In this document: one piece after another, positions 281-4,414 of the stretch | Position numbering within the stretch: the first letter of the stretch is position 1 | How the letters are laid out: each line of letters starts with the position of its first letter | IMG/VR virus record: IMGVR_UViG_3300038530_001701 | Source of the DNA: a virus | Lineage: Duplodnaviria > Heunggongvirae > Uroviricota > Caudoviricetes | Strand: one strand, 5' to 3' | DNA length: 14,055 bases | Made by a program: the position numbers and the translations under genes | Notes under the pieces: model-generated | The model's input: the letters and a program-made list of their open reading frames with translations, nothing else | Databases searched by the model: none | Told to the model about the DNA's origin: nothing

Positions 281-356
281 CGGTGCGTGGTGTAATTGGC
301 TGCACATCAGGCTTTTAACCTGACTGGTGAGAGTTCGAGTCTCTCCGCACCGACCA
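281..356 (+). tRNA. trnK: tRNA-Lys(UUU)
   Basis: Acceptor CGGTGCG/CGCACCG; anticodon arm TCAGG-CTTTTAA-CCTGA; T loop TTCGAGT; A73 + CCA. Confidence 0.96.
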
Positions 357-357
357 T

Positions 358-432
358 TGTTCCATAGTTCAATTGGTAGAACGCTCGGCTGATAACCGTG
401 TAATACAGGTTCGAGTCCTGTTGGAACAACCA
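358..432 (+). tRNA. trnI: tRNA-Ile(GAU)
   Basis: Acceptor TGTTCCA/TGGAACA; loop CTGATAA; T arm ACAGG-TTCGAGT-CCTGT; CCA. Confidence 0.95.
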
Positions 433-468
433 TTCTAAAGAATTTTGTTGACAGAGTTCTTCAGAATG
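431..468 (+). repeat. Spacer hairpin copy 1 (ATTCTAAA...TTCAGAAT)
   Basis: 17-position stem with one A.C mismatch and a TTGA loop; same register as 3618-3652. Confidence 0.6.
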
Positions 469-476
469 ATTAATAT

Positions 477-550
477 AGCCCTGCGGGTGGATTCCCCGAC
501 TCCGGCCTACGAAGCTGGAAGGCTAGGTTCGATTCCTAGTAGGGCTGCCA
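477..550 (+). tRNA. trnR: tRNA-Arg(ACG) with an atypical D arm
   Basis: Acceptor AGCCCTG/TAGGGCT; anticodon arm CCGGC-CTACGAA-GCTGG; T arm CTAGG-TTCGATT-CCTAG; G73 + CCA. No U8; D stem CGGG/CCCG starts directly after the acceptor. Confidence 0.85.
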
Positions 551-558
551 AATTATTT

Positions 559-634
559 ACTCGTCTGGCAGAGCGGCAGATGCACTACTCTTACAAAGTA
601 GATTAGGTAGGTTCGATTCCTACGGCGAGTACCA
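559..634 (+). tRNA. trnV: tRNA-Val(UAC)
   Basis: Acceptor ACTCGTC/GGCGAGT; CTACT-CTTACAA-AGTAG; T arm GTAGG-TTCGATT-CCTAC; CCA. Confidence 0.95.
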
Positions 635-640
635 AGTTTT

Positions 641-716
641 GGGCTGATAGTAGCAATTGGTAAAATCTCAGGCTTGCACCTTGAAGTTCCGGGTTCGAAT
701 CCCGGTCGGTCCACCA
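641..716 (+). tRNA. trnA: tRNA-Ala(UGC)
   Basis: Acceptor GGGCTGA/TCGGTCC with the G3.U70 Ala identity pair; loop CTTGCAC; A73 + CCA. Confidence 0.96.
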
Positions 717-729
717 TATTAAAAAGTAC

Positions 730-804
730 AGGTAGTCAAACTTAATGACAAGTCGCTCTTGATCTTAGGCATCTATGGTGATAAACTATATCCACTACCT
801 ACAA
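730..804 (+). ncRNA. Degenerate tRNA-like cloverleaf (pseudo-tRNA or tRNA mimic)
   Basis: 7 bp AGGTAGT/ACTACCT followed by ACAA; internal arms ACTT/AAGT, GAT-CTTAGGC-ATC and TATGG-TGATAAA-CTATA; no TTCGA T loop. Confidence 0.35.
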
Positions 805-841
805 CTGTAGTGCCGAGGCTCGCAACCCAGGTGTTGCAGTA

Positions 842-873
842 AATCTACAAATAAGTTTGATATTTTGTAGATT
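842..873 (+). other. Spacer hairpin
   Basis: Perfect 10 bp AATCTACAAA (842-851)/TTTGTAGATT (864-873). Confidence 0.5.
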
Positions 874-885
874 AACCTTATTTAA

Positions 886-960
886 GGGTCTATAGCTTAT
901 TGGTAAAAGCCACCGACTCATAATCGGTTGAATCAGGTTCGATTCCTTTTAGACCCACCA
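886..960 (+). tRNA. tRNA with CAU anticodon, probably Ile2 (lysidine type) rather than elongator Met
   Basis: Acceptor GGGTCTA/TAGACCC; ACCGA-CTCATAA-TCGGT resembles the bacterial Ile2 anticodon arm; weak T stem (TCAGG/CCTTT); CCA. Ile2 versus Met is inferred. Confidence 0.85.
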
Positions 961-966
961 ATTAAT

Positions 967-1043
967 CTCCCGGTAGCTCAATGGACTAGAGCAAAAGGTT
1001 TCTACCCTTTAGGTTGGGGGTTCGAGTCCCTCTCGGGAGGCCA
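967..1043 (+). tRNA. trnR: tRNA-Arg(UCU)
   Basis: Acceptor CTCCCGG/TCGGGAG; AAAGG-TTTCTAC-CCTTT; T loop TTCGAGT; CCA. Confidence 0.95.
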
Positions 1044-1058
1044 AATAAAGGTTGACAA

Positions 1059-1286
1059 ATGCTAGTAACTGCTTTAATATTGCTCGTAGCATTTATGATA
1101 TTACCAGCAGCACTTGGAACATTAGTTTTGTTTCATACTCTGGTTAGAAAGAAAAGTCCCCCAGTGGATGAGTCAAATAGAATCAACCATTTCAGATTAG
1201 TCTGGTTTGCGTTGACAAGGGAAGATAAGTTTGTTAAGCTCTTTCCGTGGCTCTCAAAAGATGAGTGGGACAATTTAAATAAATAA
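1059..1286 (+). CDS. Small hypothetical membrane protein (75 aa)
   Basis: Hydrophobic N-terminal segment (LILLVAFMILPAALGTLVLF) followed by basic RKK; AAGG 7 nt before the ATG; fills the gap between tRNA-Arg and the next ORF. Confidence 0.7.
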   Translation: MLVTALILLVAFMILPAALGTLVLFHTLVRKKSPPVDESNRINHFRLVWFALTREDKFVKLFPWLSKDEWDNLNK

Positions 1287-1303
1287 TTAAGGAGGATCAA
1301 CTA

Positions 1304-1819
1304 ATGGTTGACATAGAAGAAGTAAAAGAGTATATTCGTAATAGCTCAGACCAATCTAGTGTCTACATTGGTTGTGACTCAAAACGATTTGGTCGAAAGA
1401 ATAAAAGATTTGTTGCATACGCTTGCGTAGTTCTGATACACTTAGACAGTAAGCATGGAGCTAAGATGTTTAGCTTCAAACGAATCGAAAGAGATTTTGG
1501 ACAACTAAGACAAAGAATGGTTAATGAAGCTATTTTCGCTTGTGAAATTGGTTACGAGTTGAAAGAAGCTTGCGGTGATAGAACATTTGAAATTCACCTT
1601 GACATTAACCCTGACAAGAAACATGCTTCTTCTGTTGCATTGAAAGAAGCCTCTGGTATGGTCTTAGGTATGTTCGGTGAAAATCCAAAGGTTAAGCCTG
1701 AAGCGTTTGCCGCTTCTACCGCAGCAGATAAATTAGTCTGCGAATATGGTGGAAGAAAGAATTTTAAAAAATTCCTTGACAAACTGAAAAACGGTGTTAA
1801 ACTAGAGGATATGAAATAA
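1304..1819 (+). CDS. RNase H-like YkuK (DUF458) family protein
   Basis: Strong SD (AAGGAGG); motifs VYIGCDS, RMVNEA, EIHLDINP and KPEAFAASTAAD recognised as the YkuK RNase H-like pattern (from memory, no HMM run). Confidence 0.8.
   Translation: MVDIEEVKEYIRNSSDQSSVYIGCDSKRFGRKNKRFVAYACVVLIHLDSKHGAKMFSFKRIERDFGQLRQRMVNEAIFACEIGYELKEACGDRTFEIHLDINPDKKHASSVALKEASGMVLGMFGENPKVKPEAFAASTAADKLVCEYGGRKNFKKFLDKLKNGVKLEDMK
1776..1803 (+). promoter_or_regulatory. sigma70-like promoter inside the 3' end of the YkuK-like gene
   Basis: A/T tract, TTGACA (1776-1781), 16 bp spacer, TG-T-TAAACT extended -10 (1795-1803); predicted start ~1810, just upstream of the CAGCAA elements. Confidence 0.6.
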
Positions 1820-1826
1820 AGAATTA

Positions 1827-1889
1827 AGGCTGCTTTCAGCAACTTACAAAACTTCTAACCATTAATCTAGAACTTAAGTAATGCAGCCT
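1827..1889 (+). ncRNA. CAGCAA stem element, copy 1
   Basis: AGGCTGC/GCAGCCT terminal stem; TTTCAGCAA next to the 5' strand; internal TTCTA/TAGAA hairpin. Confidence 0.55.
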
Positions 1890-1899
1890 GTTAAAAATT

Positions 1900-2008
1900 T
1901 GGATGAGTACAGCAACTAAACTCAAATACTTTCTGTAAAAAAGTCCCTAACGGTTCGACTCCGGTTGCCTCGTAAGTGGTGGTCACGGGAAAGAGGCATT
2001 CTCATCCA
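1900..2008 (+). ncRNA. CAGCAA stem element, copy 2, with a permuted tRNA-like domain (Y RNA/YrlA-like hypothesis)
   Basis: TGGATGAG/CTCATCCA terminal stem; TACAGCAA; ACTTT-CTGTAAA-AAAGT anticodon-like arm; CGG-TTCGACT-CCG T arm; downstream AGTGGTGGTCAC D-loop-like segment. Confidence 0.6.
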
Positions 2009-2031
2009 GTATCTATTTTAAAAGTTTTAAA

Positions 2032-2105
2032 CTCCCTCTGGCGTAGTGGTAGCGTGTGTGGTTTGGGGCCATAAGGTGAAGGTTCGATTCCTTCGGGGGA
2101 GACCA
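2032..2105 (+). tRNA. trnP: tRNA-Pro(UGG)
   Basis: Acceptor CTCCCTC/GGGGGAG; TGTGG-TTTGGGG-CCATA; T arm GAAGG-TTCGATT-CCTTC; CCA. Confidence 0.95.
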
Positions 2106-2110
2106 ATTTT

Positions 2111-2197
2111 GGGGCAAGCGCAGAGACGGGTCGGCTGCATCGGACTGTAAATCCGATACCTTTGGTTTTCTAGGTTCGAATCCTAGTTGTCCCACCA
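2111..2197 (+). tRNA. trnY: tRNA-Tyr(GUA)
   Basis: Acceptor GGGGCAA/TTGTCCC; TCGGA-CTGTAAA-TCCGA; long variable arm; A73 + CCA. Confidence 0.94.
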
Positions 2198-2202
2198 ATT
2201 TT

Positions 2203-2269
2203 AGGATGCTTACAGCAAACATATTATATACTTTTCTATTGGAAGAAAACTAAGTAAATAATGCATCCT
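2203..2269 (+). ncRNA. CAGCAA stem element, copy 3
   Basis: AGGATGC/GCATCCT terminal stem; TTACAGCAA; internal TTTTCT/AGAAAA hairpin; 3' segment similar to copy 1. Confidence 0.55.
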
Positions 2270-2281
2270 TATTTTATTAAT

Positions 2282-2357
2282 GTTGGCGTGGCTGAATGGT
2301 CTTAGGCACTTGGCTGCAACCCTTGTCATGCAGGTTCGAATCCTGTCGCCAACTCCA
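2282..2357 (+). tRNA. trnC: tRNA-Cys(GCA)
   Basis: Acceptor GTTGGCG/CGCCAAC; loop CTGCAAC; U73 (Cys identity) + CCA; two U.U mismatches in the anticodon stem. Confidence 0.92.
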
Positions 2358-2364
2358 AAGTTTT

Positions 2365-2442
2365 GCCTTGCGAAGCATTTATCTGGATGATGTCGGCCTT
2401 TGTAACGCCGGGAATAGAGTTCGATTCTCTGCCAAGGCACCA
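2365..2442 (+). tRNA. trnT: tRNA-Thr(UGU), atypical
   Basis: Acceptor GCCTTGC/CCAAGGC (C7.C66 mismatch); CGGCC-TTTGTAA-CGCCG (C31.C39 mismatch); T arm TAGAG-TTCGATT-CTCTG; CCA. Confidence 0.8.
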
Positions 2443-2457
2443 ATTTAGGAGGTTTTT

Positions 2458-2808
2458 TTGAAAAATTGTACAAGATGTTTAGAAGAAAAACCTCTATCAG
2501 AGTATTATACAAAAGGTAATAGACTACACTCTGAATGTAAGACTTGCTTCATTAAAAGAAAAATTGAAGAAAGACAAGTTAAAAAAGCTTACATAAGGCA
2601 ATTAGCTGGTAGTCAGTGTACATTATGTGGTTACGATAGGTGTACAGACGCTTTAGAGTTACATCACAGAGACCCAACAAAGAAAGAATTCAGAGTCTCT
2701 GGTATGTGGAGTTTCTCTAAAGAGAGGATTAAAAAAGAGGTTGAAAAGTGTGTTCTACTATGTTCTAATTGTCATAGAGAAGTTCACGCAGGAATCTCTA
2801 AAGTTTAA
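2458..2808 (+). CDS. HNH endonuclease with CxxC zinc-binding motifs (116 aa, TTG start)
   Basis: AGGAGG SD at 2447-2452; CTRC, CKTC, CTLC; ALELHHRDP...CVLLCSNCHREVH HNH signature. Confidence 0.88.
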   Translation: MKNCTRCLEEKPLSEYYTKGNRLHSECKTCFIKRKIEERQVKKAYIRQLAGSQCTLCGYDRCTDALELHHRDPTKKEFRVSGMWSFSKERIKKEVEKCVLLCSNCHREVHAGISKV

Positions 2809-2810
2809 AT

Positions 2811-2886
2811 GGCGTCGTAGTTTAATGGTGAGAATACCGGGCCTTCAACCCGAGTGATGACGGTTCGAATCCGTTCGACGCTACCA
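2811..2886 (+). tRNA. trnE: tRNA-Glu(UUC) with C33
   Basis: Acceptor GGCGTCG/CGACGCT; CGGG-CCTTCAA-CCCG; T arm GACGG-TTCGAAT-CCGTT; CCA. Confidence 0.82.
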
Positions 2887-2893
2887 ATTTAAT

Positions 2894-2969
2894 GCGGCTG
2901 TAGCTCAACTGGTAGAGCACTACCCTGTCAAGGTAGAAGGTGCGGGTTCGACTCCCGTTAGTCGCGCCA
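2894..2969 (+). tRNA. trnD: tRNA-Asp(GUC)
   Basis: Acceptor GCGGCTG/TAGTCGC; CTACC-CTGTCAA-GGTAG; G73 + CCA. Confidence 0.96.
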
Positions 2970-2976
2970 CTTTTGT

Positions 2977-3052
2977 TGCGGTGTAGCTCAATTGGCAGAG
3001 CGCGTGACTTTGACTCACGAGGTTGAGAGTTCGAACCTCTCCACCGTTTCCA
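2977..3052 (+). tRNA. trnQ: tRNA-Gln(UUG)
   Basis: Acceptor TGCGGTG/CACCGTT (U1.U72 mismatch); CGTGA-CTTTGAC-TCACG; T arm GAGAG-TTCGAAC-CTCTC; CCA. Confidence 0.92.
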
Positions 3053-3069
3053 TTTAGAGTATTCTTTGT

Positions 3070-3148
3070 GGTGTACTTAGTTTAACTGGACAAAAACTCT
3101 CGGATGTGACCCGAGCAGATGCGAGTTCGAATCTCGTAGTACACCCCA
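3070..3148 (+). tRNA. trnH: tRNA-His(GUG) with encoded G-1
   Basis: 8 bp GGTGTACT/AGTACACC including G-1:C73; CTCGG-ATGTGAC-CCGAG; CCA. Confidence 0.95.
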
Positions 3149-3159
3149 AAGAGTATTTC

Positions 3160-3234
3160 GCGGAGTTGGTATAACGGTATTATTTCGGTCTTCCAAACCG
3201 TAAGATTAGGGTTCGAATCCCTAACTCCGCACCA
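3160..3234 (+). tRNA. trnG: tRNA-Gly(UCC)
   Basis: Acceptor GCGGAGT/ACTCCGC; CGGT-CTTCCAA-ACCG; A73 + CCA. Confidence 0.93.
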
Positions 3235-3241
3235 ATTTTAT

Positions 3242-3319
3242 TCCGGTATAGCAATCAAGGTGAATGCAACTCGCTGTTAACGAGTATGGAGGCAGGTTCG
3301 ATGCCTGCTACCGGAGCCA
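3242..3319 (+). tRNA. trnN: tRNA-Asn(GUU)
   Basis: Acceptor TCCGGTA/TACCGGA; ACTCG-CTGTTAA-CGAGT; G73 + CCA. Confidence 0.95.
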
Positions 3320-3325
3320 ATTTGA

Positions 3326-3403
3326 CGCAGAGTGGACTGGAGGCGGTTCCAGCTTGGTCTCATAAGCCAAATTACGCGGGTTCGAGTCCCGCCTCTGCAA
3401 CCA
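3326..3403 (+). tRNA. trnfM: Initiator-type tRNA-Met(CAU)
   Basis: C1.A72 mismatch (CGCAGAG/CTCTGCA); TTGGT-CTCATAA-GCCAA; A73 + CCA. Confidence 0.9.
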
Positions 3404-3410
3404 ATTTAAA

Positions 3411-3488
3411 GATTGTCAGGTAGCTCCTGAATGAACTGAGGATTTGCAGGAGACCCTCAGAGAGATTAACAAAAAATCCTGCCCAATT
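3411..3488 (+). ncRNA. ATGAACTGAGG pseudoknot-capable element A
   Basis: TCAGG/CCTGA hairpin; ATGAA linker; CTGAGG/CCTCAG stem; loop GCAGGA (3446-3451) complementary to TCCTGC (3477-3482); GATTG/CAATT closing helix. Confidence 0.55.
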
Positions 3489-3493
3489 TCATT

Positions 3494-3594
3494 AGTCAGT
3501 TTATTTAGAATGATTCGGAAAGAGTCCGTATGAACTGAGGGCGACACCTGCCTACTGATAGCCCTGATCAGGTGAATGGGTTAGTGGTGTGACT
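3494..3594 (+). ncRNA. ATGAACTGAGG pseudoknot-capable element B
   Basis: CGGA/TCCG hairpin; ATGAA linker; CTGA/TCAG plus GGGC/GCCC stem; loop ACACC (3544-3548) complementary to GGTGT (3586-3590); AGTC/GACT closing helix. Confidence 0.5.
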
Positions 3595-3617
3595 CGTGCA
3601 GGAGAGAACTGCACTCG

Positions 3618-3652
3618 ATTCTAAAAAGTTTTCTTAGAGAGTTTTTCAGAAT
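3618..3652 (+). repeat. Spacer hairpin copy 2 (ATTCTAAA...TTCAGAAT)
   Basis: 16-position stem with the A.C mismatch and two U.G wobbles at the same positions as in 431-468. Confidence 0.6.
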
Positions 3653-3655
3653 ACT

Positions 3656-3731
3656 GGAGCTTTGGTAGATGTGGTCACTACGTCTGTTTGAAGCACAGAA
3701 GAACACGGTTCGATTCCGTGAGGCTCCACCA
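3656..3731 (+). tRNA. trnF: tRNA-Phe(GAA)
   Basis: Acceptor GGAGCTT/AGGCTCC; TCTGT-TTGAAGC-ACAGA; CCA. Confidence 0.95.
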
Positions 3732-3737
3732 AAATTC

Positions 3738-3829
3738 GGAAGATAATCCTACAAGGTTGTAGGGAACGCCTGCTAAGCGTGTCGCATTGTGATGAACAGT
3801 GTCTGGATCGTTACCAGTATCTTCCTCCA
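3738..3829 (+). tRNA. trnS: tRNA-Ser(GCU) with a non-canonical T loop
   Basis: Acceptor GGAAGAT/ATCTTCC; ACGC-CTGCTAA-GCGT; long variable arm; T loop ATCGTTA; extended D stem CCTAC/GTAGG; U73 + CCA. Confidence 0.88.
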
Positions 3830-3836
3830 ATTTTAT

Positions 3837-3913
3837 GCTCAGGTGCGCTAATTGGCAAAGCGGTAAGATTTAGAATCTTATGAGTGTGGGTTCGACTCCC
3901 ACCCTGAGTACCA
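3837..3913 (+). tRNA. trnL: tRNA-Leu(UAG), short variable loop
   Basis: Acceptor GCTCAGG/CCTGAGT; TAAGA-TTTAGAA-TCTTA; A73 + CCA. Confidence 0.94.
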
Positions 3914-3920
3914 TTTTAAT

Positions 3921-3999
3921 GCTGGTGTGGCCTAATTGGCATAGGCGGCTCTCTCAAAAGGAGTGACATTTGTCGGTTCGACTCCGACCACCAGTACCA
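3921..3999 (+). tRNA. trnL: tRNA-Leu(CAA), short variable loop
   Basis: Acceptor GCTGGTG/CACCAGT; GCTCT-CTCAAAA-GGAGT; A73 + CCA. Confidence 0.92.
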
Positions 4000-4015
4000 G
4001 AACAAAGGATAATTT

Positions 4016-4168
4016 ATAAGTATCTTTGAAAAACGTCAAAAAGAAAAAGACGAAAAACGTATGTCTGACTATAAGAATCCAGACTACGCTAAAGGTATGG
4101 AAGAATTATTCAAACTTGTTCGTGAAGGTAAAATACAAGTACCTCAAAGAGCAAGATTAAAGTTTTAA
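4016..4168 (+). CDS. Small basic hypothetical protein (50 aa from an ATA start; 35 aa from ATG 4061)
   Basis: Open frame SIFEKRQKEKDEKRMSDYKNPDYAKGMEELFKLVREGKIQVPQRARLKF* fills the spacer between two tRNAs; AAGGA SD (4005-4009) lies 6 nt before ATA; in-frame TAA at 4010-4012. Confidence 0.55.
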   Translation: MSIFEKRQKEKDEKRMSDYKNPDYAKGMEELFKLVREGKIQVPQRARLKF

Positions 4169-4169
4169 T

Positions 4170-4258
4170 GGAAGGTAGCGGCTCGTGGGAGCCAATCGGT
4201 CTTGAAAACCGACATGCCAGTGGAAACGCTGTCAGTTCGACTCTGATTCCTTCCTCCA
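4170..4258 (+). tRNA. trnS: tRNA-Ser(UGA)
   Basis: Acceptor GGAAGGT/TCCTTCC; TCGGT-CTTGAAA-ACCGA; long variable arm; CCA. Confidence 0.93.
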
Positions 4259-4265
4259 ATTCTAT

Positions 4266-4336
4266 GCAGGACGATCTGGTGATCAAGCGAGATTCCAAAC
4301 CTTGCTAGTAGGGTTCGATACCTTAGTTCTGTGCCA
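4266..4336 (+). tRNA. trnW: tRNA-Trp(CCA), 71 nt with a reduced D arm
   Basis: Acceptor GCAGGAC/GTTCTGT; loop TTCCAAA; T arm TAGGG-TTCGATA-CCTTA; G73 + CCA; D region only GATCTGGTGATC. Confidence 0.8.
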
Positions 4337-4337
4337 T

Positions 4338-4414
4338 GCTCCGGTACGCTAATTGGCAAAGCGGGGAGATTTAAAATCTCTTGATTGTGAGTTCGACTCT
4401 CACTCGGAGTACCA
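4338..4414 (+). tRNA. trnL: tRNA-Leu(UAA), short variable loop
   Basis: Acceptor GCTCCGG/TCGGAGT; GGAGA-TTTAAAA-TCTCT; A73 + CCA. Confidence 0.94.

What the first reader, a model, noticed from the sequence alone, without database searches (positions are those of the whole stretch)
1827..2269. Three-copy family of stem-closed CAGCAA RNAs inside the tRNA array
Seen: three non-tRNA elements (1827-1889, 1900-2008, 2203-2269) share one architecture. Each has a 7-8 bp terminal stem whose sequence differs between copies while pairing is kept (AGGCTGC/GCAGCCT, TGGATGAG/CTCATCCA, AGGATGC/GCATCCT), an invariant CAGCAA just after the 5' strand, and an A-rich interior. Copies 1 and 3 also share an internal TTCT/AGAA hairpin and a similar 3' segment (AGAACTTAAGTAATGCA vs AGAAAACTAAGTAAATAATGCA). 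A TTGACA promoter at 1776-1803 points straight at copy 1. Inference: compensatory stem changes around a fixed single-stranded motif suggest a protein-bound small RNA family processed from the tRNA polycistron. A closed terminal stem with an internal effector domain is the general design of bacterial Y RNAs (Ro60/Rsr partners), but no Ro60/TROVE gene is in this window.
Basis: partly seen in the sequence, partly recalled or inferred. Interest (0 to 1): 0.85.

Follow-up and report, generated by a model that had tools for sequence, protein, structure and literature searches.

The report
Phage Y-RNA-like "CAGCAA-handle" small RNAs
Three small non-tRNA genes in this phage's tRNA operon belong to a widespread small-RNA family, apparently undescribed, that shares a short closing stem plus the word CAGCAA, usually sits beside a phage gene for a Ro60-shaped RNA-binding protein, and so most likely works like the Y RNAs of bacteria and animals.

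Summary
1827-1889, 1900-2008 and 2203-2269 each have a perfectly paired 7-8 bp closing stem, a fixed 3-nt spacer, then CAGCAA. A covariance model built without copy 2 recovers it (E 6.6e-4) and finds nothing else in the window.

Relatives in IMG/VR keep the elements at the same sites. In 14 short members, 96 of 96 stem cells pair and 5 of 7 pairs change on both sides. In relatives, the same handle carries a T-arm, closed acceptor hairpin and D-arm body that matches Rfam YrlA below threshold (about 39 bits, E about 1e-7).

The handle RNAs flank a DUF2828/DUF7788 gene in Felix O1, Campylobacter CP8, Listeria LP-124, mycobacteriophage Whirlwind and 44 of 76 IMG/VR loci, always on the gene's strand. 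A model of that protein matches only Ro60 structures over its full length.

The Y-RNA reading is therefore supported in design, but these are not YrlA: the GNCGAA motif, the Rfam threshold and a TROVE gene are all missing. Expression, processing and binding are untested, and no partner gene lies in this window.

This scan has reported the same family before, on other genomes and elsewhere in this genome. I found no Rfam family or paper describing it.

The parts
1776..1803 (+). sigma-70-like promoter candidate (TTGACA, 16 nt, TAAACT, with TG before the second hexamer) about 25 nt upstream of copy 1, inside the 3' end of the PF04308 ORF
   Evidence: Consensus scan, 10 of 12 matches. The sequence is kept in relatives, but it is also coding, so conservation does not prove promoter function.
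1827..1889 (+). Copy 1, 63 nt. Handle: AGGCUGC / GCAGCCU, spacer UUU, CAGCAA 1837-1842. A/U-rich body with hairpin UUCUA 1853-1857 / UAGAA 1868-1872. G follows the 3' strand.
   Evidence: 67.1 bits. The ortholog in L002/L026 3234-3296 is 89% identical. Its inner hairpin changes from UUCUA/UAGAA to UUCAAA/UUUGAA, a change on both sides.
1900..2008 (+). Copy 2, 109 nt. Handle: UGGAUGAG / CUCAUCCA, spacer UA, CAGCAA 1910-1915. The body holds an anticodon-arm-like hairpin at 1928-1944 (ACUUU CUGUAAA AAAGU), a T-loop-like hairpin at 1951-1963 (CGG UUCGACU CCG), and a GUG GUGGU CAC hairpin at 1976-1986 inside the stem 1966-1971/1993-1998.
   Evidence: R1 finds it although it was not in the seed (24.5 bits, E 6.6e-4). 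The L002 ortholog changes the handle pair G-C to A-U on both sides and keeps the T-loop and GUGGUGGUCAC. No Rfam tRNA or YrlA hit.
2203..2269 (+). Copy 3, 67 nt, between tRNA-Tyr and tRNA-Cys. Handle: AGGAUGC / GCAUCCU, spacer UUA, CAGCAA 2213-2218. Body hairpin about 2232-2246. It lacks the usual G after the 3' strand.
   Evidence: z -2.9; 59.6 bits. The syntenic element in six relatives has the stem AGGUUGC/GCAACCU, where the A-U pair becomes U-A.
1304..1819 (+). Neighbour, not shown to be part of the system: a 171-aa RNase H-fold protein (PF04308, YkuK-like) directly upstream of copy 1.
   Evidence: Pfam E 2.4e-23. A PF04308 gene lies next to the DUF2828 gene in Vibrio phage 1.081.O and within 4 kb of it in 4 of 80 IMG/VR DUF2828 loci. 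In L188 and L192 the order is PF04308, handle RNAs, DUF2828.

Best explanation
The three elements are genes for small non-coding RNAs of about 63, 109 and 67 nt. They belong to a large phage family defined by a 'handle'. The handle has a 7-bp closing stem whose first two pairs are nearly fixed (A1-U, G2-C) while pairs 3-7 covary freely. Three spacer nucleotides follow (N-U-A/U), then single-stranded CAGCAA. At the other end, the 3' strand is followed by G(U). The body between the two ends is free to vary. Most likely mechanism: the RNAs are transcribed with the tRNAs from the + strand promoters of the array and trimmed out by host tRNA-processing nucleases (inferred). The handle is the docking site for a phage-encoded ring protein of the DUF2828/DUF7788 type, which folds like Ro60 (genomic coupling and fold are shown; binding is inferred). 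The variable body then acts as the effector or adaptor module, as in Y RNAs, where it tethers or gates Ro60 towards other RNAs or nucleases. Copy 2 and the longer paralogs in relatives offer tRNA-like surfaces. Copies 1 and 3 are minimal forms. Published data place the protein's role in counter-defence: the Bas63 homologue gp130 counters the Ppl system (PMC11482910).
For: 1) Real and specific: model R1 finds exactly these three in the window. 2) Conserved at the same sites in IMG/VR relatives with compensated stem changes. On 14 short members, 96/96 cells pair, 5/7 pairs change on both sides (27 cells), and the slid controls pair at 21-46%. 3) Across 1.48 Mb of fetched loci, 100 unique elements with the full handle lie on the strand of the query genes and 0 on the opposite strand, with 51 distinct stems. 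4) The same handle carries a T-arm, closed acceptor hairpin and D-arm body in relatives, matching Rfam YrlA at 38-40 bits, E 5e-7 to 7e-8. Distant phages carry both tRNA-like orientations (L076, L060). 5) Coupling to the protein gene. Felix O1 has four handle RNAs at 23872-24704, starting about 340 nt after ORF42, which is DUF2828+DUF7788. CP8, LP-124 and Whirlwind have handle RNAs about 20-340 nt from the gene. In 44 of 76 IMG/VR loci centred on the gene, R1 gives hits at E<=0.1; all 54 hits are on the gene's strand and nearly all lie within about 0.8 kb. In the loci not chosen for that gene (98 sources in all), outside the window's own clade and Felix O1 only L076 and L100-L102 had hits. 6) The protein model (pLDDT 87.7, pTM 0.88) has Ro60 as all 13 top PDB hits (E 4e-8 to 6e-6, TM up to 0.65). 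Ro60 is also the top Swiss-Prot hit. 7) Literature: Bas63 gp130 is Ro60-like, lies upstream of the tRNA genes and counters Ppl.
Against: No DUF2828 or TROVE gene lies in the window. The genome is not held, so the partner gene in this phage rests only on an earlier, untested scan note. The relatives' contigs that I could search lack the gene, but all except one are fragments. The nearly complete 163-kb contig G004 and the complete Pseudomonas phage M5.1, the closest cultured relative by terminase (55%), have no DUF2828 gene (positive control). No handle RNA turned up in the L028 stretch of G004 or in the first 50 kb of M5.1 that I scanned. About 40% of DUF2828 loci gave no R1 hit. Copy 3 lacks the 3' G. 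Folding energies are unremarkable. Binding of the handle to the protein has never been shown.
Confidence: 0.6

Rival explanations
1. They are decaying tRNA-derived remnants or spacers of the tRNA array with no function of their own. The stems would be leftover acceptor stems.
For: They sit among tRNAs. Copy 2 keeps T-loop-like and anticodon-arm-like hairpins. Its stem GGAUGAG/CUCAUCC equals the acceptor stem of tRNA-Tyr in relative L023. Bodies diverge fast between relatives (75-89% identity). In L021/L023/L024 the element between tRNA-Cys and tRNA-Thr has lost its 3' strand.
Against: The handle is kept in one register with compensated changes across phages of Proteobacteria, Firmicutes, Campylobacter and Actinobacteria. 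It also occurs outside tRNA arrays: in Whirlwind it follows the Ro-like gene. It is strictly strand-specific (100 versus 0). Neutral remnants would not keep CAGCAA invariant while the stems change.
Confidence: 0.08
2. They are cis-acting processing or stability signals of the tRNA polycistron, such as acceptor-stem mimics that recruit RNase P, RNase E or RNase Z, or that protect neighbouring tRNAs. On this reading they are not trans-acting RNP RNAs.
For: A 7-bp stem with A/U-rich flanks resembles a tRNA acceptor stem. M. smegmatis YrlA is cut by RNase P (heading of section 8 in PMC4201824). The elements are interleaved with tRNAs.
Against: This does not explain the invariant single-stranded CAGCAA. 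It does not explain the tight same-strand coupling to a Ro60-like gene in 44 of 76 loci. It also does not explain their presence where no tRNA array follows.
Confidence: 0.1
3. They are functional small RNAs of this family, but the handle is read by another partner, for example a host protein, the neighbouring PF04308 RNase H-fold protein, or an RRM protein as reported for Dictyostelium Class I RNAs. The Ro60-like protein would then not be the partner.
For: In this window the nearest gene is PF04308, not DUF2828. PF04308 recurs near the system. A Class I RNA with the same handle was reported to bind the RRM protein Rnp1A/CIBP directly (PMC7919456). No binding data exist for the phage protein.
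Against: PF04308 is absent from Felix O1, Whirlwind, LP-124 and CP8, all of which have the RNAs, and lies near only 4 of 80 DUF2828 loci. The DUF2828 coupling is far stronger.
Confidence: 0.15
4. They act at the DNA level, as inverted-repeat elements such as homing-endonuclease targets, recombination sites or miniature mobile elements.
For: HNH endonuclease genes move around these arrays. The elements are bounded by inverted repeats.
Against: The repeat arms differ between copies while complementarity is kept, which indicates selection on RNA pairing. G-U pairs are tolerated in other family members. Orientation is strictly tied to the direction of transcription. No target-site duplications or identical copies were seen.
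Confidence: 0.03

Closest known systems
YrlA / bacterial and phage Y RNAs bound by Ro60 (Rsr): Rfam RF02553; Chen et al. 2014, PMC4201824
   Same: The 5' and 3' ends pair to close the RNA. A short conserved motif sits on the 5' side next to that stem. The inner module is variable and in some members is a tRNA mimic in the order T-arm, closed acceptor hairpin, D-arm (seen in this phage's relatives). The genes lie next to, and on the strand of, a Ro60-fold protein gene in related systems.
   Different: The motif is CAGCAA rather than GNCGAA(N)G. The three window copies give no Rfam YrlA hit, and the long paralogs reach only about 39 bits against a threshold of 69. The associated protein is DUF2828+DUF7788, which is not TROVE by Pfam and has no sequence match to Ro60 in the PDB. 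Most members are minimal RNAs of about 50-70 nt with no tRNA-like body.
Thermus phage phiLo Ro60 with Yrl1/Yrl2 (PMC12135203; PDB 9KOP, 9L5Y)
   Same: A phage-encoded Ro60-fold protein with small stem-closed RNAs encoded just upstream. 9KOP is the top structural match of the DUF2828 model.
   Different: The phiLo protein is a canonical TROVE Ro60, and its RNAs were picked by a CGAA motif in an internal bulge. Binding was shown there by experiment; here it was not.
Dictyostelium Class I RNAs: Rfam RF01414; Kjellin et al. 2021, PMC7919456
   Same: Near-identical architecture and motif. A short stem joins the ends, the 5' G is conserved, the Rfam consensus reads CUUACAGCAA right after the 5' strand, the body is variable and A/U-rich, the 3' end reads C-UG(U), and the length is about 60 nt. 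Sub-threshold Rfam hits: 21.5 and 19.8 bits in the window, 29.3 and 27.8 bits in relatives.
   Different: Class I RNAs are eukaryotic, transcribed from DUSE promoters and reported as unique to dictyostelids. Their known direct binder is an RRM protein. All hits here fall below the gathering score of 41.5 bits. I could not test whether the likeness is common descent or convergence.
Escherichia phage Bas63 gp130 (PhageMaP preprint, PMC11482910)
   Same: A Felix O1-type phage. The Ro60-like protein is encoded directly upstream of the tRNA genes. The authors suggest that some annotated tRNAs may be Y RNAs. gp130 counters the Ppl defence.
   Different: The RNAs themselves, the handle and its motif are not identified there. 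I did not check that gp130 is the ORF42 homologue; I infer it from the genus.
T4 stable RNAs species 1 and 2 (rnaC, rnaD) in the T4 tRNA cluster (from my own knowledge, not tested here)
   Same: Small stable non-tRNA RNAs encoded within, and processed from, a phage tRNA operon, with no known function.
   Different: No sequence or motif comparison was made here, and no Ro60-like partner is known to me for them.

Membership tests
YrlA / bacterial Y RNA (RF02553) | Closing stem formed by the 5' and 3' ends | tested here: met
   Perfect 7-8 bp stems in all three copies; the stem covaries in the family.
YrlA / bacterial Y RNA (RF02553) | GNCGAA(N0-1)G motif near the 5' end, the proposed Rsr contact (Chen et al. 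2014) | tested here: not met
   All three copies have N-U-W-CAGCAA at that place, and 100 of 100 family members have CAGCAA by construction of the search.
YrlA / bacterial Y RNA (RF02553) | tRNA-like domain with T arm, acceptor-like hairpin and D arm | tested here: not met
   Copies 1 and 3 have none. Copy 2 has only a T-loop-like hairpin and a GUGGUGGUCAC hairpin, with no acceptor hairpin. The domain is present in the long paralog of relatives.
YrlA / bacterial Y RNA (RF02553) | Score at or above Rfam's gathering threshold (69 bits) | tested here: not met
   No YrlA hit on any of the three even at E<=10. Relatives' long paralogs score 38-40 bits.
YrlA / bacterial Y RNA (RF02553) | Encoded within about 4 kb of a TROVE-domain Ro60 gene on the same strand | tested here: not met
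   No TROVE or DUF2828 ORF in the 14-kb window. No TROVE gene in four related contigs.
YrlA / bacterial Y RNA (RF02553) | Bound by Ro60/Rsr in vivo | not testable with these tools
   Needs RIP or EMSA.
CAGCAA-handle RNAs beside DUF2828/DUF7788 genes (uncatalogued; defined here by use) | Handle in fixed register: 7-bp stem with (A/U)1 and G2-C, 3-nt spacer N-U-W, CAGCAA, then G after the 3' strand | tested here: met
   Copies 1 and 2 fit fully (copy 2 has U1-A). Copy 3 fits except that U follows the 3' strand where G is usual.
CAGCAA-handle RNAs beside DUF2828/DUF7788 genes (uncatalogued; defined here by use) | Recognised by a covariance model of the family | tested here: met
   R1 scores are 67.1, 59.6 and 24.5 bits. 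Copy 2 was not in the seed. The same model finds the RNAs next to DUF2828 genes in unrelated phages.
CAGCAA-handle RNAs beside DUF2828/DUF7788 genes (uncatalogued; defined here by use) | A DUF2828/DUF7788 (Ro60-fold) gene in the same genome, usually adjacent | tested here: inconclusive
   Not in the window, and the genome is not held. An earlier scan note places such a gene, with seven handle RNAs, about 27 kb upstream; I did not verify this.
Dictyostelium Class I RNA (RF01414) | Short terminal stem plus the conserved 11-nt motif next to the 5' strand, with a variable body | tested here: met
   The Rfam consensus is GaUcuC CUUACAGCAAU ... GagAuC UG. Copy 3 reads GGAUGC UUACAGCAAAC and copy 1 reads GGCUGC UUUCAGCAACU ... 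GCAGCC UG.
Dictyostelium Class I RNA (RF01414) | Rfam gathering score (41.5 bits) and dictyostelid origin with a DUSE promoter | tested here: not met
   21.5 and 19.8 bits (E 0.14, 0.4). The context is a phage with sigma-70-type promoters.
tRNA (RF00005) | Cloverleaf recognised by ARAGORN or the Rfam tRNA model | tested here: not met
   No call on the three elements.

The most novel reading that the evidence does not exclude
The CAGCAA handle marks a second Ro-type ribonucleoprotein system, distinct from TROVE Ro60 with YrlA. In it, a DUF2828/DUF7788 ring protein is loaded with interchangeable small RNAs. Their bodies (tRNA mimics, anticodon-arm look-alikes, minimal hairpins) would act as adaptors or decoys in phage counter-defence. 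The near-identical handle of Dictyostelium Class I RNAs would then mean that those unexplained eukaryotic RNAs are members of the same ancient RNP family.
Probability: 0.12. Interest if true: 0.88.

Novelty: new variant of a known kind. Interest (0 to 1): 0.68.

Why it matters
Ro60 and its Y RNAs are a classic RNA-surveillance particle, but in bacteria and phages only the TROVE/YrlA version has been described. The evidence here points to a parallel version that is much more common in phages. The protein has homologues in 710 phage records and more than 2,500 protein clusters. Felix O1, Listeria P100-type, Campylobacter, KVP40-type and mycobacterial phages all carry the protein, and the RNA partners, found beside it in four of the five phages examined, have gone unannotated among tRNA genes.

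A published screen already ties the protein to escape from a bacterial defence (Ppl). Naming the RNA partner therefore makes the mechanism directly testable in cultured model phages.

For genome annotation, these elements explain many "empty" gaps in phage tRNA arrays. The match to the Class I RNAs of social amoebae gives a concrete hypothesis for RNAs whose function has been open for two decades.

Tried and rejected
- **No close phage record.** Megablast and blastn of the region against 50,697 phage records found only tRNA and HNH similarity.
- **Genome and reads unavailable.** So I could not look for the partner gene in this phage or for expression.
- **Partner gene in relatives.** TROVE and DUF2828 searches of the relatives' IMG/VR contigs were negative. 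Most are 15-29% fragments, so this says little. A positive control for the DUF2828 search was added later.
- **Closest cultured relative.** The closest by terminase, Pseudomonas phage M5.1, has no DUF2828 gene and, in the first 50 kb including its tRNA array, no handle RNA. The system is therefore not universal in this lineage.
- **L125.** This DUF2828 contig comes from the same sample as relative L003 and has the same expected genome size. It could not be tied to this phage and has only a doubtful mini-hairpin with CAGCAA.
- **Loose descriptors.** Any 7-bp stem at any offset near CAGCA was too noisy to use. The fixed-register descriptor and the covariance model replaced it.
- **Copy 2 as a permuted tRNA-Tyr.** The best local alignment to circularised tRNA-Tyr genes scores 21, against a shuffle mean of 13.2 and maximum of 22, and other tRNAs score higher. 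The 'GUA' loop reads CUGGUAA in the ortholog. Descent from tRNA-Tyr is not demonstrable.
- **PF04308 as the partner protein.** Rejected: it is absent from four phages that have the RNAs and lies near only 4 of 80 DUF2828 loci.
- **Protein sequence against the PDB.** The sequence search of the DUF2828 protein found nothing; only the fold comparison shows Ro60.
- **AlphaFold cluster search.** It hid organism names, so I could not check whether dictyostelids have the protein.
- **Retron, terminator, type III toxin-antitoxin and CRISPR-like readings.** Considered and dropped: there is no RT gene, no T-tract, and no tandem identical repeats.
Full report
**What is in the window.** The window is a fragment of an uncultured tailed phage. 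It holds a + strand tRNA array of 24 ARAGORN calls (281-4414; one of them, at 298-372, is a spurious - strand call overlapping two + strand tRNAs), interrupted by a few small ORFs. It continues into terminase, portal, protease, decoration protein, major capsid and neck/tail genes. No phage record is close at the DNA level. The best cultured relatives by terminase are Pseudomonas Otagovirus phages at about 55% identity.

**Check of the observation.** The three flagged elements are as described. In one common register each has:
- a 7-bp closing stem (AGGCUGC/GCAGCCU, UGGAUGA/UCAUCCA, AGGAUGC/GCAUCCU; copy 2 pairs one base further);
- three spacer bases (UUU, GUA, UUA);
- CAGCAA (1837-1842, 1910-1915, 2213-2218);
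- an A/U-rich body.

None is called as a tRNA, and no Rfam family reaches its threshold on them. Folding energy alone is unremarkable (z -1.7, -1.1, -2.9). A TTGACA-16-TAAACT site with an extended -10 TG lies at 1776-1803. It is one of several + strand TTGACA sites in the array.

**Relatives.** Terminase and the upstream PF04308 protein retrieved 28 IMG/VR loci and 80 metagenome loci.
- One relative (L002/L026) has all three copies at the same sites, at 89, 80 and 75% identity.
- Six others keep an element between tRNA-Tyr and tRNA-Cys with the stem AGGUUGC/GCAACCU, where the window has AGGAUGC/GCAUCCU.
- They also add a member between tRNA-Cys and tRNA-Thr (AGAAUGU.../...ACAUUCU).
- Before tRNA-Pro they carry a long member with the stem AGAUUCA/UGAAUCU.
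- Between the window and L002, copy 2 changes a stem pair from G-C to A-U, and the inner hairpin of copy 1 changes from U-A to A-U.

On an alignment of 14 short members (this clade, L076 and Felix O1), all 96 stem cells pair. Five of seven pairs change on both sides (27 cells), and the first two pairs (A-U, G-C) never vary. Sliding the partner strand by one to three columns drops pairing to 21-46%.

**Family model.** Covariance model R1 was built from those 14 sequences, with only the closing stem as structure and without copy 2. It recovers copy 2 at 24.5 bits (E 6.6e-4). Nothing else in the window, on either strand, scores below E 1. So there are exactly three members here.

It found 100 unique elements with the full handle (G2, and G after the 3' strand) on the strand of the query genes and none on the other strand. 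These have 51 different stems and a median length of 66.5 nt. The consensus is (W)A-G-R-N-U-N-N / N-U-A / CAGCAA-A-Y ... N-N-A-N-Y-C-U / G-U.

**Link to Y RNAs.** The long member in the relatives reads as follows: handle, short anticodon-arm-like hairpin, T arm (GUUGG UUCGAGU CCAAC), a closed 7-bp acceptor-like hairpin, UA, D arm (GCUC AGCGGGUA GAGC), handle. That is the circular order of the YrlA tRNA-like domain. Rfam YrlA matches it at 38.2-39.6 bits, E 7.6e-7 to 7.4e-8 depending on the stretch searched, which is below the gathering score of 69.

More distant phages carry the same handle on other bodies:
- a tRNA-like body in the normal D-anticodon-T order (L076 1022-1124);
- a permuted tRNA with an encoded CCA in the acceptor loop (L060 4161-4298);
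- a CUGCAA variant (L100-L102).

Chen et al. describe both orientations of the tRNA-like module among Y RNAs (YrlA versus Yrn1). They define YrlA by a GNCGAA(N)G motif near the 5' end, the tRNA-like domain and proximity to a TROVE gene. The window's copies fail those tests. They share the design but are not family members.

**The likely protein partner.** Earlier notes of this scan pointed to DUF2828 and Felix O1, and I tested that lead.
- **Felix O1.** ORF42 (22118-23533) is DUF2828 plus DUF7788. It is followed by four handle RNAs at 23872-24704, interleaved with the first tRNAs. The fourth has a YrlA-type body.
- **Distribution.** ORF42 homologues occur in 710 phage records. These include mycobacteriophages, where the protein is annotated 'Ro-like RNA binding protein', and it falls in more than 2,500 protein clusters.
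- **Four distant carriers.** R1 and direct reading find two handle RNAs just upstream of the gene in Campylobacter phage CP8, three just upstream in Listeria phage LP-124, and three just downstream in mycobacteriophage Whirlwind (one of them YrlA-type). Vibrio phage 1.081.O gave only a weak hit.
- **IMG/VR loci centred on the gene.** These proteins are 38-45% identical to Felix O1's. R1 gave 54 hits at E<=0.1 in 44 of 76 loci. All are on the gene's strand, and nearly all lie within about 0.8 kb of it.
- **Comparison set.** The loci not chosen for this gene (98 sources in all) were rich in tRNA arrays. Outside the window's own clade and Felix O1, only L076 and L100-L102 had hits.
- **Fold.** An AlphaFold model of the Felix O1-type protein (pLDDT 87.7, pTM 0.88) has Ro60 structures as its 13 best PDB matches, among them phiLo, Xenopus, human and Deinococcus Ro60, at E 3.6e-8 to 5.7e-6 and TM up to 0.65 over the full length. 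The next matches cover only the vWA half. Swiss-Prot models give Ro60 as well. Sequence alone finds no PDB relative.

**Literature.**
- The PhageMaP preprint reports that Bas63 gp130 resembles Ro60 in structure, lies directly upstream of the tRNA genes and counters the Ppl defence. It speculates that some annotated tRNAs are Y RNAs, but it does not identify the RNAs (PMC11482910).
- Thermus phage phiLo Ro60 binds two upstream Y-like RNAs that carry a CGAA motif (PMC12135203).
- Searches for DUF2828 and for the motif text found no description of this RNA family.
- The handle is almost the same as that of Dictyostelium Class I RNAs: a short stem, a conserved 5' G, CUUACAGCAA, a variable body and a 3' C-UGU (PMC7919456; Rfam alignment). 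All Rfam scores against that family are below threshold (19.8-29.3 bits).

**Most likely mechanism.**
- *Shown:* the sequence family, its covariation, its strand bias, its coupling to the DUF2828 gene, and the Ro60-like fold of that protein.
- *Inferred:* the RNAs are transcribed with the tRNAs and cut out by host tRNA-processing enzymes. The handle docks on the Ro60-like ring. The body serves as adaptor, gate or decoy, in the manner of Y RNAs.
- *Not available:* any expression data for this phage, and the partner gene in this genome. An earlier scan note places the gene, with seven more handle RNAs, about 27 kb upstream of the window. I could not verify this because the genome is not held.

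**Rivals.** The rivals are tRNA debris, cis-acting processing signals, another binding partner, and DNA-level repeats. They are weighed in their own section. The strand-specific coupling to the protein gene, and the invariant motif beside covarying stems, argue against all but the 'other partner' reading.

**Novelty.** The design is that of Y RNAs, but the motif, the protein family and the predominance of minimal forms are different. I found neither an Rfam family nor a paper describing it. This scan has reported the same family repeatedly on other genomes and elsewhere in this genome. I rate it a new variant of a known kind.

Noticed in passing
window 3732-3826: A stem-closed element GGAAGAU ... 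AUCUUCC followed by UCCA, with a hairpin whose 7-nt loop reads CUGCUAA (anticodon GCU). ARAGORN and Rfam do not call it. It may be an unusual tRNA-Ser(GCU), and a similar sequence stands in relative L024 after tRNA-Phe.
   Followed up: no
window 730-801: Another stem-closed element (AGGUAGU / ACUACCU, starting AGG like the handles) without CAGCAA. R1 does not match it. It may be a degenerate tRNA-like element or a lapsed family member.
   Followed up: partly
window 3404-3655: A 250-nt gap between tRNA-Met and tRNA-Phe with no ORF and a repeated AUGAACUGAGG. The relatives' gap (L024 7771-7993) has one related word, CAUGAACUGAG, at the same place, so another structured RNA is likely there.
   Followed up: no
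window 1304-1819; L114 6483-7001; L188 2603-3040; L192 2994-3425: The PF04308 (YkuK-like, RNase H fold) gene that precedes copy 1 also lies right after the DUF2828 gene in Vibrio phage 1.081.O. In two IMG/VR loci it precedes the handle RNAs and the DUF2828 gene. It is a recurrent but infrequent neighbour (4 of 80 loci).
   Followed up: partly
L023 1375-1458 versus window 1900-2008: The acceptor stem of tRNA-Tyr in relative L023 (GGAUGAG/CUCAUCC) is identical to the closing stem of copy 2. This hints that handles and tRNA acceptor stems exchange or share descent. The overall alignment of copy 2 to tRNA-Tyr is not significant.
   Followed up: partly
window 2458-2808 and relatives: HNH-type endonuclease ORFs sit at different positions of the tRNA array in different relatives: after Pro, His, Thr or Asn. 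That is typical of mobile homing genes reshuffling the array. The window's copy has no Pfam hit but carries the CxxC ... CSNCH motif.
   Followed up: no
L060 4161-4298: A handle RNA (CAGCAC variant) whose body is a circularly permuted tRNA with an encoded ACCA in the loop that closes the acceptor stem. RNase P and CCA-end chemistry could act on it, as reported for M. smegmatis YrlA.
   Followed up: no
L112 7815-9026 and 10586-11458; L109 13399-15106: RNA-repair genes lie close to the DUF2828 gene in Listeria phage LP-124 (an RtcB-like ligase and an RNA ligase). The Otagovirus M5.1, which lacks the DUF2828 system, carries polynucleotide kinase and RNA ligase instead. This fits a shared theme of RNA damage and repair.
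   Followed up: no
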